A stretch of DNA of 64,000 nt from the human T2T-CHM13v2.0 reference genome, Homo sapiens, in assembly GCF_009914755.1 (NCBI RefSeq), contig NC_060947.1. The stretch is one strand, 5' to 3'. This document shows positions 6,072 through 10,339 of this stretch, in pieces. Both the position numbers and the translations under genes were made by a program. Every line of letters starts with the position of its first letter. Position 1 is the stretch's first letter. The notes below the pieces were generated by a model. The model ran no database searches. It saw nothing but the letters and a program-made list of their open reading frames with translations, and was not told the DNA's origin.

Positions 6072-9000
6072 CTGTGGACAGAAAGGAAGGGGCCAGAGCC
6101 AGGTCACATCCACATCCCCTTCCAGATCTACTCTTTTTATGCGTCCCGCCCAACCAAAGATTTGTCACCTGGACTGTTGCATAGACCTCTTCCTCTCTGA
6201 TTTCCCCATCTCCCATCTTGCCTCCCCCAATCCTTCCATCAAAGCCACCACAACTCTTTTTGTCAAGCTCAGGGTCTCTGAAATTGTTCTCCCTAGCTCA
6301 GAAAACGTTCCCTGGCTCCTCACTACCCACAGTTGCTGGTCCAGCCTCCTAAGCCTGACCTGTCAGACCTCTGTGATTGGTATCCTCTCCAGCCTCATCC
6401 CTTTCTGTTCCAGCAGTCCCTCCAGGGGTGTTTCTTCACTGACACACCATGCTCCATTCACCATTTGGATCTGGGAATGCCTAGCCTTCCCTCCCAGCCT
6501 CCCCAGTTGTTTATCCCCCCTCGGAGCTCCTCCAGCCCCTCCTCTCTGGGCACATCGTTAAAATTTGGCCACAAAACACAGCTTGCAAGGGCATCCAGGC
6601 TCCACATCTAGACTGGAAGCTCCCGGAAGGCAGAGACCAGACCTCCTTCCAGACCAAGCCCTTTATCACCTCTGTATGTCCTCCCCAGACCACAGTAGGC
6701 CACAGGCGGCTGAGCATAGACCCTGGGCTGAAAGTCAAGAGGGCCGGTTCTTCCACTTGATATGCTGCATGCATATCAGAGAGGGCAAGTCCCTGCCACT
6801 CTCAGGGCCTCAGCTTCCTTCTTTCTTGACATCAGGGCACTGAACGCTTGCTGTTGCACACAAAGCTCAATAAACCGAAGATTCAATAAACAGCCCTCAA
6901 CTACCATCTCGGGAGTCATACTGAGGAGCTTGGGTGCCTGGCCCCAAGGAGATTCAACTTACTGACTCTGATTTTTCAGTTAGAACCTGCTTACCACAAC
7001 GACCCCCATTCCCCAGCTATTCCCACCCTGTATTCTCCTTTCAGGGAGCAGGCTACCTGGTGGGTTGCAAGGCTGGTGCAGGGAGATGGAGTCAGGAGGG
7101 GCCTGGGCAGAGTTTCTCAGAGTCAGCAGAGCCTCAGCGGCCTCCAGCTTCCGCTGCCACTCTGAGTGGGCAGAAACCAAAGCCTGGTCAGAGACTTTGG
7201 GGACCTGGAAAGGAAAGTGCATGAGAGAATAGGCACTGGGAAACTACACCTCTTCCCAATACGACAAGTGCCCCTTCAGCCCCCTGTTCCCTCAACCTCC
7301 TCCCCCACCCCCACCAAGGCCTTCTGCTCTTCCCATCCACTAAACTCCGCCCCTCCCAGGGTTCTGGACCCCACTACTTTCCCAGGACCTGTGGCTGCAG
7401 TAGAAGAGGGTCAAGGGTGGCACAGGGCTGGAGGATCAGAGTTGAGCATCTAGAAACAAGGAAAGGAGAGGCCAGGGGATTAAATCCGCTGGCGGACACA
7501 TACTACCAGTAGACAGAAAGAGGGGCAGGATTTTGCAGTATCTGGATGTGAGAATCCCAATGCCTGCTGGACCATTAGTCATTGTGGCTGGGGCAAGTCC
7601 CTTCTCCCGCTTGGCCAGGTTTCTTTTCCATACCTCTTTTTCCTGACAGGGACGCTTATTCCTACCAGCTCTTTCCTCCCAGGGCAATGGTGAAAATCAT
7701 GGGAAATTACAGGTGTCCGTGCTTTAATTTGCAAAACACCTGGAGAGATGTGATTACTGTCCCTCTTCAGGGACTGGTTCTCACTTCCATATTGCCCAGT
7801 CCCCATGGGTCTTGAAGGGTCTCCAGGAAGCTTTCTCTAATGGCCTCTGGGCTTTGCCCTGGGCCTCTGTGGCCCTCGCCAGCACGGACCCCACCTTTCA
7901 GCAGGACCTTCTATCCCATCCACCTGTTTCATGTGGCATAACAACCCCCATTTGTTGAAGCCCTACTATGTGGCAGGCCTTGTGCCCGTTCCCTTTTCAA
8001 TGCTATGGGTATAGAATATTGTCCTCAGTACATCCATAGGGAAATGGAGGTTCAGACACATAAAGTCACTTGTCCAAAGTCTCACAAATAGAAAATAGCA
8101 AAGCTAGGAGAGCCCTGTCCTCGCCCGTTAGTATTAGATGCTGCCTTGCCCTCCTCCTTCTTCTCCTCCTCCTCCTCTCCCTCCTCCTCCTCCTCCTCCT
8201 CCTCCTGCTCCTCCTCCCCCTCCACCACCTCCTCCTCCTCCTCCCCCTCTTCCTCCTCCATCTCCCACGGCATCAAGGACAAGGTTAGGCACACAAGACA
8301 CAACCTGCTCCATGGTCCTCACGCTACTCACATGCTGGGCAGGGCAGGGGCCCTGTGGGGATCCCCAGAAGGAGAAACCAGTTGCTGCTCCAAGGTCACT
8401 GGAGTACAGGGCAGAGACAAAGGTTCTGGGGCCTGGCCAAGCAGCAGAGCCCCTTGGGAGCTCCCCTGCAGGGGCAGAGAGCACAGGTTGCAGTCAGGTA
8501 CCAGGCCAGCCATGGAGAGAGGAGGTGTGGACATGTTTTAGGATGAGGATAGGAGCCTAGAATGTCAGAGCTCCGAAGACCTTGAAGACCAGCCAGTCTT
8601 GCCTTTCATTTTGCAACTGGGGAAATTGAGGCCCAGGGAGGAGAAGTGATATTTCCCAAGGTCACATGGTGAGCTGGTGATAGGATTGAAGATGAAACCC
8701 ATGTCCTTGGGACACGGTGAAAGATGTCTGGACAGTGGCTGGGTGGGAGCCTGCCCGACTGGTCACCGACTCTCCTTACCTCCTCGGGGGCTGTGAAGAT
8801 GTGGGTCTCGGGCTGCAGCATGTTGTTCTCCTTCCCAGCTGTGAAAGACCAGGAACAGCTTTGGTGAGTCTTTCCCCCAACCCCACCCCACTTCACCCCA
8901 CCTCCAGTCGCAGGTCTCATCTCACCATGGAGCTCTTCGATTGCCCTGTCCCCCAGCTCTCTCCTTCCTACAAACACTTGGTAGACAACATTGGTGACAT

Positions 9001-9201
9001 TTTGCACCTGGGCACACTAAGGTCCAGGGAGCAATTTGCCCCAGGTCGCACTGCAATTCTGTGACAGGACTGGTGACAGAACCACTCATGCTTCCTCCAC
9101 CCAAACTCTGGCTCCCTCCCTTGCCAGAAACACTCACTGAGGGCTCCTGCTCTGATGGTCAAATTCCTGACACGGATGGGAGCTTTGGGAGGGGCAGCCA
9201 T
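5959..9201 (-). CDS. DMRTC1: DMRT-like family C1 protein (192 aa, DM-domain-less DMRT; DMRTC1 or near-identical paralogue DMRTC1B)
   Basis: Exons 9201-9138, 8838-8780, 8465-8332, 7449-7389, 7204-7057 and 6071-5959 join at GT-AG sites in consistent phases. Total 579 nt = [27 protein letters not shown]...[16 protein letters not shown]...[11 protein letters not shown], the recalled DMRTC1 protein, with a DMRTC2-like C-terminal region. Confidence 0.95.
7057..7204 (-). CDS. DMRTC1: DMRTC1 coding exon 5 (VPKVSDQ...QPCNPP)
   Basis: Acceptor ttccAG at 7206-7205, donor GTAG at 7056; 148 nt. Confidence 0.93.
7389..7449 (-). CDS. DMRTC1: DMRTC1 coding exon 4 ([21 protein letters not shown])
   Basis: Acceptor ttctAG at 7451-7450, weak donor GTCCTG at 7388; 61 nt. 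Too short to appear in the ORF track. Confidence 0.9.
8149..8260 (+). repeat. (CCT)n trinucleotide/polypyrimidine repeat in DMRTC1 intron
   Basis: About 110 bp of imperfect CCT units. It generates the poly-P/S/L/E/G ORFs in the track. Confidence 0.95.
8332..8465 (-). CDS. DMRTC1: DMRTC1 coding exon 3 (GSSQGALL...APALPS)
   Basis: Acceptor ctgcAG at 8467-8466, donor GTGAGT at 8331; 134 nt. Confidence 0.93.
8780..8838 (-). CDS. DMRTC1: DMRTC1 coding exon 2 ([20 protein letters not shown])
   Basis: Acceptor tcacAG at 8840-8839, donor GTAAGG at 8779; 59 nt. Confidence 0.93.
9138..9201 (-). CDS. DMRTC1: DMRTC1 first coding exon ([21 protein letters not shown]); exon probably starts at 9295
   Basis: ATG at 9201, donor GTGAGT at 9137, upstream acceptor ttcAG at 9297-9296. 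Confidence 0.9.
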
Positions 9202-9376
9202 ACTCCTTATTGGTCCTTGAGCCAGGTGTCTCTTTGATCGTGCCCGCTGCTCCCTCTTCAAGGCACTCACAGCAGGCAAGACCCTGAGGCGTTCTCTGAA
9301 GCAAAGGATAGCAGGGCTAAGATTAGTCCCATTTAGAGGAGGTCTGGCCCCTCCGCATCTCAGACACCATACTCAT

Positions 9377-9645
9377 GAGAAGAGGGCACAATTGTGACAC
9401 TCGCAGGCCTGGAAGAGGCAGAAATGCTTGTGGCCCCTGATTTGGGCAGTGATACCCAAATGGTTGTGGCAGCGGTCACAGCAACCTATAGCTCTTCTGG
9501 GGCCAAGTTCAGTCCCCCATGGGGCTCCAGTCTGACGCCCTGTGGTGCGTTCAGAGTCAGAGGGGCAGCAGGGTGCAGCGGGTATTTATTTGTCCTCAGT
9601 ACATCCATAGGGAAATGGAGGTTCAGACACACGGGATCCATGCTT
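9377..9645 (-). pseudogene. Vestigial DM-domain (zinc module) exon of DMRTC1
   Basis: Minus frame reads [46 protein letters not shown], homologous to DMRTC2 [48 protein letters not shown]. The donor reads ATGAGT; the ancestral ATG (9641) is out of frame. Confidence 0.88.
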
Positions 9646-10339
9646 CTAGGGTCAGGAGCGGAGGTCAGAATGGCCACGTGATCCCCTACCCCCAACGTAC
9701 TTCCTCTGCCCTTGGAAAACCCTATCTGAGGTGGCTCAATGCTCCTTCTCCATCCTTCTCACCGCTGGAATCAGATTGCCTTCCCTCCCCTTCTTCTCCC
9801 ATGGTTTTCGCCAACCTTCACTGCAACCCCCTTGCTGATGTTGCCTCCTTCCCAGAAGCCCCACTCACACATAGCCCCCTCCCAAGAAACTCTTGGAATG
9901 GATCCCATACCCATTCAATGCAGTCATTATTCTCCTTGCTTACCGTCACTTCACCATAGACCCCACTTTCAGGCATGCACATGCACTCCCCTGCCCTCTT
10001 CCACCATTACTACACGCCCTTCTTGTGTATCATCCTGCACTCTGCCAAACCCAAGTATTATTCCTGGCATCCACTTCACCAATTCTCTTCAGAACCTCCT
10101 GCATTCATTCACTCCCCGCACAGGATTTTGTGCCACCAGCACTCAATTCCATTGTCAGTCTCTTCTATGCCCTATATTCAATTTTCCCCTCACATTTCAT
10201 GCTGGTTCATGCTGATTTTTTTCTTGTACTCCACCTTACACTTAATTATTCCCTTGCTCCCCCTTTGAGCTGATTTCCCTCTTGTATCCCATGAAATCAT
10301 ATTGTTCTCCTGGATCCCTGGCCCTCTTTCAGTTACTAA

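What the first reader, a model, noticed from the sequence alone, without database searches (positions are those of the whole stretch)
9202..9510. Fossil DM zinc finger, one splice base from being in frame with DMRTC1
Seen in sequence: on the minus strand, 9510-9377 reads [45 protein letters not shown] with no internal stop. All eight DM zinc ligands are kept (C-x2-C-x2-H-x9-H-x3-C-x4-C-x-C-x2-C; one extra residue versus the usual x8). An 81-nt intron follows (9376-9296) whose donor is ATGAGT instead of GTGAGT. The next exon (from 9295) reads ERLRVLPAVSALKREQRARSKRHLAQGPIRS, like the DMRTC2 recognition helix ERRRVMAAQVALRRQQEAQLKKHL, and is in frame with the DMRTC1 ATG 31 codons later. Restoring G at 9376 would join the zinc module, helix and C-terminus. 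The next GT (9372) would add ATGA and a stop. Established: DMRTC1 is described as DM-less and is related to DMRTC2. Inference: the DM domain was lost by point lesions rather than deletion, perhaps recently, and some mammals may keep a DNA-binding DMRTC1. The remnant may already be noted in the Dmrt8 literature.
Basis: partly seen in the sequence, partly recalled or inferred. Interest (0 to 1): 0.8.

Follow-up and report, generated by a model that had tools for sequence, protein, structure and literature searches.

The report
Decayed DM zinc-finger exon in DMRTC1
The human DMRTC1 gene still carries, in its first intron, the broken remains of the exon that once encoded its DNA-binding zinc finger; the relic is real but was already reported, and it is broken in four places, not one.

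Summary
Minus strand 9585-9373 is an open 70-codon frame holding a DM zinc module (Pfam PF00751, 33.3 bits, cut-off 27). DMRTC2 has an intron at the same codon and phase (83 nt against 81 nt). Joining 9377 to 9295 runs open to the DMRTC1 stop.

"One base from in frame" holds for the splice join but is too generous for a protein. The human exon has four lesions:
- a 41/42-nt frameshifting insertion after codon 3, an exact copy of intron sequence 8060-8019;
- a TAA where lemurs have Glu5;
- an extra Leu between the two His ligands (x9; 84 of 85 other modules are x8);
- a GT>AT donor with TGA.
The DM frame holds no ATG.

Lemur, squirrel, rabbit, tree-shrew, carnivore, horse, ungulate/whale and bat DMRTC1 models keep an open DM module: 49 of 83 DMRT8-type rows. 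No tarsier, monkey or ape row does. So the loss is lineage-specific, by small lesions.

This is already in print: human DMRT8 "contains a stop codon 3' of the DM domain" (PMC3406020, citing 2002/2003 papers). Interest is low.

The parts
9377..9645 (-). Ancestral DM-domain exon of DMRTC1/DMRT8, now a pseudo-exon in intron 1. The acceptor ..ccctag| lies just upstream. It is paralogous to the ATG/DM exon of DMRTC2.
   Evidence: Alignment A1 with DMRTC2; Pfam DM hit; 88% and 87% identity over 100% of the 69-aa query to Microcebus and Lemur catta DMRTC1. Not among the annotated exons in the gene table supplied with the finding.
9639..9641 (-). Ancestral start codon (M-D-P; lemur M-E-P; DMRTC2 M-E-P), now out of frame with the zinc module. 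Its own frame ends at TAG 9488-9486.
9590..9631 (-). Lesion 1: a 41/42-nt insertion after codon 3, causing a frameshift. It is an exact copy of 8060-8019 on the same strand. The boundaries are ambiguous by 1-2 nt.
   Evidence: 41-column gap in DMRTC2; 42 of 42 identity to window 8019-8060; absent from the lemur, squirrel and other N-termini.
8019..8060 (-). Intronic source of the copied 42 nt, between exons 8332-8465 and 7389-7449. It looks like part of an old MIR-type SINE; that label is recalled, not tested.
   Evidence: The genome search found only this place, the pseudo-exon and their DMRTC1B twins.
9586..9588 (-). Lesion 2: TAA in the DM frame where lemur DMRTC1 has Glu5 (K-E-I-P against human K-stop-I-P).
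9388..9480 (-). Zinc module with all eight ligand residues, C-x2-C-x2-H-x9-H-x3-C-x4-C-x-C-x2-C.
9457..9459 (-). Lesion 3: an extra TTG (Leu) between the two His ligands, giving x9 instead of x8.
   Evidence: 3-nt gap in DMRTC2; gap in the DMRT1 and Dsx alignments; 84 of 85 modules are x8, only the human one x9.
9373..9376 (-). Lesion 4: the donor dinucleotide reads AT instead of GT (9376-9375), so the in-frame TGA (9375-9373) ends the frame directly after the module.
   Evidence: It matches the 'stop codon 3' of the DM domain' quoted in PMC3406020.
9296..9376 (-). Former phase-2 intron inside the DM domain, 81 nt. DMRTC2 has 83 nt at the same codon.
9202..9295 (-). Remnant of the DM recognition helix (31 codons from 9294), now 5' UTR of DMRTC1 exon 2 and in frame with the ATG at 9201-9199.
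   Evidence: The aligned lemur, macaque X1 and other rows translate it.

Best explanation
Window 9645-9377 (minus strand) is the orthologous but dead DM-domain exon of human DMRTC1 (DMRT8).

Origin. DMRT8 arose as a genomic copy of DMRTC2 (DMRT7) that kept its introns. It inherited the intron that splits the DM domain between the zinc module and the recognition helix.

Loss in the human lineage. The exon was disabled by at least four small lesions:
- a frameshifting 41/42-nt insertion copied from an intron 1.6 kb away;
- a nonsense codon;
- a one-codon insertion between the zinc ligands;
- a GT>AT donor.

Present state. Transcripts start at a distal exon 1 and splice straight to the acceptor at 9295. 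They skip the relic, and translation starts at an internal Met (9201), giving the DM-less protein.

Shown: homology, the lesions, the shared intron, and open DM modules in other mammals' gene models. Inferred: the relic has no coding function today, and the order and dates of the lesions.
For: Domain identity.
- Pfam DM 33.3 bits against a cut-off of 27.
- DMRT1 and Dsx PDB hits.
- Genome scan: 9 DM matches. Six are full length (profile 1-47), DMRTC2 covers profile 1-37, and the two X copies cover 5-37. Only the C-type genes stop at the intron.

Shared gene structure.
- DMRTC2's exon ends ..CT|gtgagtatg, an 83-nt intron follows, and the next exon resumes G GAG CGC. DMRTC1 has ..TC|atgagtatg, 81 nt, then A GAA CGC.
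- Homology continues into the flanking intron, so this is not a retrocopy.
- The conceptual join is open for 294 codons to the DMRTC1 stop.

Orthologues.
- Microcebus and Lemur catta DMRTC1 are 88% and 87% identical over 100% of the 69-aa relic and carry PF00751 plus PF15791.
- Tree: 37 DMRTC2 rows form one side of a branch with support 100. The human sequence falls with the 79 others.

Lesions.

DM-skipping transcript.
- Human exon 1 joined to exon 2 reads an open frame without ATG. Its peptide (..ASWASQSRRE) recurs in beaver, jerboa and cricetid models.

Other.
- DMRTC1 and DMRTC1B are identical over 8500-10300.
- Literature.
Against: - The DM-bearing orthologues are database gene models, mostly computer-predicted, not proven proteins. 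Two of the 49 are flagged LOW QUALITY.
- No non-human DNA could be fetched, so no lesion is dated and no dN/dS was computed.
- No expression data could be seen, so inclusion of the relic in rare transcripts is not excluded.
- The primary papers (Ottolenghi 2002, Veith 2006) are not held. Prior knowledge therefore rests on passages in citing papers.
- The human zinc module is 93% identical to the lemur one, higher than the protein's middle part at 63-67%. That fits either a late loss or chance over 30 residues.
Confidence: 0.92

Rival explanations
1. One reading: the DM domain is separated from a working DMRTC1 protein by a single donor-site base, lost very recently.
For: The join 9377|9295 is in frame and open to the stop codon. 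All eight ligands are kept. The zinc module is 93% identical to the lemur one.
Against: - The DM frame has no Met and is closed upstream by TAA 9588-9586.
- The ancestral ATG is out of frame because of the 41/42-nt insertion.
- The x9 spacing is unique among 85 modules.
- The macaque, orang-utan, langur and tarsier rows are all DM-less.
Confidence: 0.03
2. The relic is still used, as a rarely included non-coding or NMD-triggering exon, or as a regulatory element of DMRTC1, which would explain its good preservation.
For: The acceptor ..ccctag| is conserved with DMRTC2. A GT at 9372 could serve as a donor. The relic lies 81 nt from a used acceptor. One unnamed lorisid-like model (P0025) starts with a peptide that matches the ORF at 9864-9736 just upstream.
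Against: No annotated human transcript contains it, according to the gene table supplied with the finding. Its preservation is within what a few tens of millions of years of neutral drift allow. No expression data were seen.
Confidence: 0.05
3. Chance resemblance, or a recent gene-conversion patch from DMRTC2.
For: None beyond the short length of the module.
Against: The Pfam score is above the curated cut-off. Homology spans exon, intron and next exon. DNA identity to DMRTC2 is only 83% over 100 nt, while the relic is 88% identical at protein level to lemur DMRTC1 and shares DMRT8-specific features: no SRSPT arm, His at ligand 4 +2, and Pro in the helix.
Confidence: 0.005

Closest known systems
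Human DMRT8/DMRTC1 DM-domain remnant as described by Ottolenghi et al. 2002 and Kim et al. 2003. Known here only through the passage in PMC3406020; the primary papers were not seen.
   Same: The same locus and the same feature: a DM domain followed by a stop codon. This fits TGA 9375-9373 directly after the zinc module.
   Different: The passage mentions only the stop codon. The other items are not in any text I could read: the upstream frameshifting insertion and its intronic source, the TAA, the extra Leu, and the broken donor as the cause of the stop. Veith 2006 may cover some of them.
DMRTC2 (DMRT7), chr19, locus L007
   Same: Paralogue with the same exon layout: ATG and zinc module in one exon, a phase-2 intron of about 82 nt at the same codon, and the recognition helix in the next exon. 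Its protein carries the C-terminal PF15791 domain, as do the DMRTC1 orthologues scanned.
   Different: DMRTC2's module is intact and almost invariant: 97% mean pairwise identity over 37 rows and 74 bits. The DMRT8 type is derived and variable: 69% identity and 30-48 bits.
DM-bearing DMRTC1/DMRT8 gene models of other eutherians (for example Microcebus P0003, Lemur catta P0004, Sciurus P0006, Equus P0011)
   Same: Orthologous exon. The N-terminus M-E-P-K-E-I-P-A-A-P-C-C.. matches the human relic residue for residue apart from the lesions.
   Different: They have an open frame, x8 spacing, and a helix joined to the module. They are models, not tested proteins.
Mouse Dmrt8.1/8.2/8.3, the 'DM domain-less' genes of Veith et al. 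2006 (title and citing passages only)
   Same: X-linked DMRT8 genes whose products lack a functional DM domain.
   Different: Cricetid models read the distal exon 1 instead of a DM exon. I did not examine mouse DNA.

Membership tests
DM DNA-binding domain (Pfam PF00751) | Profile score above the curated gathering cut-off | tested here: met
   33.3 bits against 27, E=4.6e-8, profile 5-36 of 47; 36.1 bits in the genome scan.
DM DNA-binding domain (Pfam PF00751) | Eight zinc ligands (C,C,H,H,C,C,C,C) | tested here: met
   All eight aligned ligand columns are occupied by the canonical residue in the human relic.
DM DNA-binding domain (Pfam PF00751) | Canonical H-x8-H spacing | tested here: not met
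   The human spacing is x9, from an extra Leu at 9459-9457. 84 of 85 modules in the set are x8.
DM DNA-binding domain (Pfam PF00751) | Zinc module continuous with the recognition helix in one translated product that starts at an ATG | tested here: not met
   The DM frame has no Met. TAA lies upstream, TGA and an AT donor downstream.
DM DNA-binding domain (Pfam PF00751) | Zinc and DNA binding | not testable with these tools
   An AlphaFold2 model of lemur P0003 with 49 aligned rows had pLDDT 33-51 over the module, which is uninformative.
DMRT8/DMRTC1 orthologue group | Groups with DMRTC1-type proteins, not with DMRTC2 | tested here: met
   FastTree of 116 rows: the DMRTC2 side (37 rows) is split off at support 100. 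The human sequence is nearest to macaque, orang-utan and lemur DMRTC1.
DMRT8/DMRTC1 orthologue group | DMRT8-specific residues: His two residues after ligand 4, Pro in the helix, no SRSPT arm | tested here: met
   The human relic has ..GHKHFC and ..VLPAV. His at +2 is found in 48 of 49 DMRT8-type modules against Arg in 37 of 37 DMRTC2 rows. Pro is found in 67 of 70 against Ala in 37 of 37.
Processed pseudogene (retrocopy) | Introns absent | tested here: not met
   The 81-nt intron and the flanking intron homology are retained.
Dead exon inside a live gene (lineage-specific exon loss) | The orthologous exon is coding elsewhere, carries disabling lesions here, and is absent from annotated transcripts | tested here: met
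   coding in other mammals' models; lesions; the gene table supplied with the finding (no exon at 9377-9645).

The most novel reading that the evidence does not exclude
DMRT8 may not be a 'DM-less' gene in general.

In most eutherian orders sampled, its gene models keep an open DM module of a derived type. Gln, Glu or Asn replaces the second His ligand in 39 of 49 modules. A His two residues later is near-universal (48 of 49). Pro sits in the recognition helix in 67 of 70 rows.

This module is conserved about as well as the C-terminal domain (69% against 66% mean pairwise identity) and better than the linker (43%).

That would make DMRT8 a re-tooled DM factor, with altered zinc coordination and perhaps no or different DNA binding. 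The module was then lost independently in tarsiers, monkeys and apes and in several rodent lines. In our lineage one blow was a 42-nt insertion templated from a neighbouring intron.
Probability: 0.3. Interest if true: 0.45.

Novelty: already known. Interest (0 to 1): 0.22.

Why it matters
For the human genome this is a tidy, well-preserved example of domain loss by small lesions inside a gene that stayed alive. It explains why DMRTC1 starts at an internal Met of the ancestral protein. It adds no new kind of element, and the core fact was published more than twenty years ago.

The modest added value has two parts. The first is the full list of lesions, including a templated insertion whose source can be pointed to. 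The second is a reminder that 'DMRT8 lacks a DM domain', as current papers put it, is true for human and mouse products but not for many other mammals' gene models.

Tried and rejected
- One search was rejected because one reference contained a stop codon. It was repeated with correct frames.
- The helix-remnant exon alone (52 aa) and the ATG-frame peptide (51 aa) gave no Pfam family, even at E up to 10.
- Veith 2006 and Ottolenghi 2002 are not held. 'Dmrt8' plus 'pseudogene' found 0 papers.
I did not repeat it, because the genome DNA search answered the question.
- AlphaFold2 of lemur DMRTC1 with 49 aligned rows gave mean pLDDT 45.5, and 33-51 over the DM module. Only the helix at 218-243 was confident. 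That is too poor for a fold search, so none was run.
No non-human mammalian DNA is reachable with these tools.
- A U12-type AT-AC reading of the ATGAGT donor was considered and dropped. It does not resemble the U12 donor consensus as I recall it; no tool tested this.

Full report
**1. What is in the sequence**

On the minus strand, 9585..9373 is an open frame of 70 codons. Its second half is a DM zinc module, with the first Cys at 9480-9478 and the last at 9390-9388.
- Pfam's DM model scores it at 33.3 bits, E=4.6e-8. This is above the curated 27-bit cut-off and covers profile positions 5-36 of 47.
- The solved DM domains of DMRT1 (4yj0, E=1e-6) and Doublesex (1lpv, E=1.5e-6) are the best PDB matches. 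Each needs a one-residue gap after the first His.
- A six-frame DM scan of the whole assembly finds nine places. Six are full-length matches at 81-89 bits. DMRTC2 on contig 19 scores 61 bits and covers profile 1-37 only. The last two are this place and its DMRTC1B twin, at 36 bits and profile 5-37.

So the match is not chance. Only the two C-type genes stop at profile position 37.

**2. The shared intron**

In DMRTC2 (L007) the exon ends ..CTC ATC CT|gtgagtatg. An 83-nt intron follows, and the next exon resumes G GAG CGC CGC AGG.

In the window the exon ends ..CTC TTC TC|atgagtatg. Eighty-one nucleotides follow (9376-9296), and the annotated exon 2 resumes A GAA CGC CTC AGG.

The position and phase (2) are identical. 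Homology runs through the intron and upstream of the acceptor, so this is a genomic paralogue, not a retrocopy.

From 9294 there are 31 codons of helix remnant, then the DMRTC1 ATG at 9201-9199. Joining 9585-9377 by coordinates to the annotated coding exons gives 294 codons with only the terminal stop.

Both are passed.

**3. Why 'one base' is too generous**

Comparison with DMRTC2 DNA and with lemur, marmot and squirrel DMRTC1 proteins shows four lesions in the human exon.
- *Insertion.* After codon 3 (ATG GAT CCC at 9641-9633), 41/42 nt are inserted at 9631-9590, shifting the frame. The ATG frame then ends at TAG 9488-9486.
- *Nonsense codon.* The next ancestral codons read AAA TAA ATA CCC, where lemurs have K-E-I-P. 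A TAA at 9588-9586 therefore closes the DM frame, and that frame contains no Met.
- *Extra codon.* A TTG (Leu, 9459-9457) lies between the two His ligands. Among 85 modules that fit the pattern, 84 have x8 and only the human one has x9.
- *Donor.* It reads AT instead of GT, so the in-frame TGA at 9375-9373 ends the frame.

Restoring the donor alone would therefore join the frames but would not give a translatable DM protein.

**4. A traceable insertion**

The inserted 42 nt are 100% identical to window 8060-8019 on the same strand. That place lies in the intron between exons 8332-8465 and 7389-7449.
- The flanks of the two copies are unrelated.
- The genome search found no other copy apart from the DMRTC1B arm.
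- The source looks like part of an old MIR-type repeat. That label is recalled, not tested.

I read this as a templated insertion from 1.6 kb away. Forty-two bases are too few to date it. Exact identity argues only against great age.

**5. Other mammals**

Searching the 69-aa relic against longer proteins returned five hits: DMRTC1 of Microcebus (88% identity, 100% coverage), Lemur catta (87%), two Marmota species and Sciurus. All carry PF00751 plus PF15791.

Searching with the Microcebus protein gave 163 hits, of which 120 were listed. In a FastTree of 116 rows, the 37 DMRTC2 rows form one side of a branch with support 100. All the others, the human sequence included, are DMRT8-type. Five rows under 190 aa were dropped before the tree was built.

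Of the 83 DMRT8-type rows, 49 hold an aligned zinc module with at least 6 of 8 canonical ligands.
- These come from lemurs, marmots and squirrels, rabbit, tree shrew, carnivores, horses and rhinos, pigs, ruminants, hippo, whales, fruit bats, a low-quality dugong model, and unnamed rows.
- Rows are cluster representatives, not species. Most are computer-predicted models.

The rows from Macaca (2), Pongo, Pygathrix and Carlito have no module, nor does Nycticebus isoform X2. The same holds for Galeopterus, the 193-aa Sciurus row, Heterocephalus, Castor, Jaculus and the cricetids.

A search with the helix-remnant exon found only the macaque X1 cluster (27 members, DM-less) and the two lemurs.

So the loss is lineage-specific within primates. 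No tarsier, monkey or ape row with the module was found.

**6. The retained modules are derived**

Pfam scores of nine DM-bearing DMRT8 models are 29.6-47.9 bits, against 74.2 for gorilla DMRTC2.

Ligand strings among the 49 modules:
- CCHQCCCC: 30
- CCHHCCCC: 9
- CCHECCCC: 6
- CCHNCCCC: 2
- HCHHCCCC: 1
- CCHQCCCS: 1

The second His ligand is therefore replaced in 39 of 49.

| Feature | DMRT8-type | DMRTC2 |
|---|---|---|
| Residue two places after ligand 4 | His in 48 of 49 | Arg in 37 of 37 |
| Recognition-helix position | Pro in 67 of 70 | Ala in 37 of 37 |
| Zinc module, mean pairwise identity | 0.69 | 0.97 |
| Helix, mean pairwise identity | 0.56 | 0.98 |
| C-terminal 110 residues, mean pairwise identity | 0.66 | 0.86 |
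| Middle part, mean pairwise identity | 0.43 | 0.74 |

The DMRT8 module evolves much faster than DMRTC2's. Within DMRT8, however, it is no less conserved than the C-terminal domain.

Whether it still binds zinc or DNA is unknown. An AlphaFold2 model of the lemur protein was too poor to help, with pLDDT 33-51 over the module.

**7. How the live gene bypasses the relic**

The gene table supplied with the finding has no exon at 9377-9645. Exon 1 lies about 68 kb upstream and splices to 9295.

I fetched that region as L009. The donor at contig position 71377084 joins in frame to exon 2 with an open frame but no ATG. The joined frame reads ..PPNARGRASLPRVPASWASQSRRE|RLRV...

The same peptide is part of the beaver, jerboa, Onychomys and Sigmodon models. 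The DM-skipping first exon is therefore shared by primates and rodents and probably predates the decay of the DM exon.

DMRTC1 and DMRTC1B are identical over at least 8500-10300.

**8. What is known**
[quoted passage not shown] It cites Kim et al. 2003 and Ottolenghi et al. 2002.
- Other papers (passages only) simply call DMRT8 DM-less or incomplete.
- The primary papers are not held. I cannot say how many of the lesions, or of the DM-bearing orthologues, they already describe.
- Six full-text searches turned up no text on the insertion, the TAA, the extra Leu, the ligand substitutions or the DM-bearing orthologues.

**9. Verdict**

The relic is real, correctly located and correctly identified. 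The mechanism is loss by small lesions with the helix remnant left in the 5' UTR. The 'one base' and 'recent' claims are overstated or untested.

The core fact is already published, so the finding ranks low. The lesion list, the templated insertion and the derived DM module of other mammals are minor additions.

Noticed in passing
window 8019-8060 and 9590-9631 (minus strand): An exact 42-nt copy of intron sequence sits inside the dead DM exon, with unrelated flanks. It looks like a templated insertion from 1.6 kb away. The source resembles an old MIR-type repeat; that label is recalled, not tested.
   Followed up: partly
L009 (own genome, contig 23, 71375000-71378000), donor at 71377084: Human DMRTC1 exon 1 joined to exon 2 is an open frame without ATG. 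Its peptide recurs in beaver, jerboa and cricetid DMRTC1 models, where an upstream ATG makes it coding. The DM-skipping first exon seems older than the primate-rodent split.
   Followed up: partly
proteins P0003-P0119 (alignment, counts): DMRT8-type DM modules replace the second His ligand with Gln, Glu or Asn in 39 of 49 rows. They carry His two residues later in 48 of 49 (Arg in all 37 DMRTC2 rows) and Pro in the recognition helix in 67 of 70. This may be a shifted zinc ligand.
   Followed up: partly
own genome, loci L001-L008: Of the nine human DM-domain matches, only DMRTC2 and the two DMRTC1 copies end at profile position 37. An intron splitting the DM domain is specific to the C-type genes.
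   Followed up: yes
window 8500-10300 against L008: DMRTC1 and DMRTC1B are base-for-base identical over this 1.8 kb, so both arms carry all four lesions.
   Followed up: yes
window 9736-9864 (minus strand) and protein P0025: An unnamed DMRTC1-type protein that groups with Nycticebus starts with a peptide (EGWRKPWE..) matching the open frame just upstream of the dead exon. This hints at a proximal first exon or promoter there in a relative.
   Followed up: no
protein P0018 (Macaca mulatta isoform X1, cluster of 27 members): The macaque model translates the helix remnant from a short upstream exon (M-R-I-R, then E-H-L-R-V-L-P..). The stretch that is 5' UTR in the human annotation is predicted coding in an Old World monkey.
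   Followed up: no
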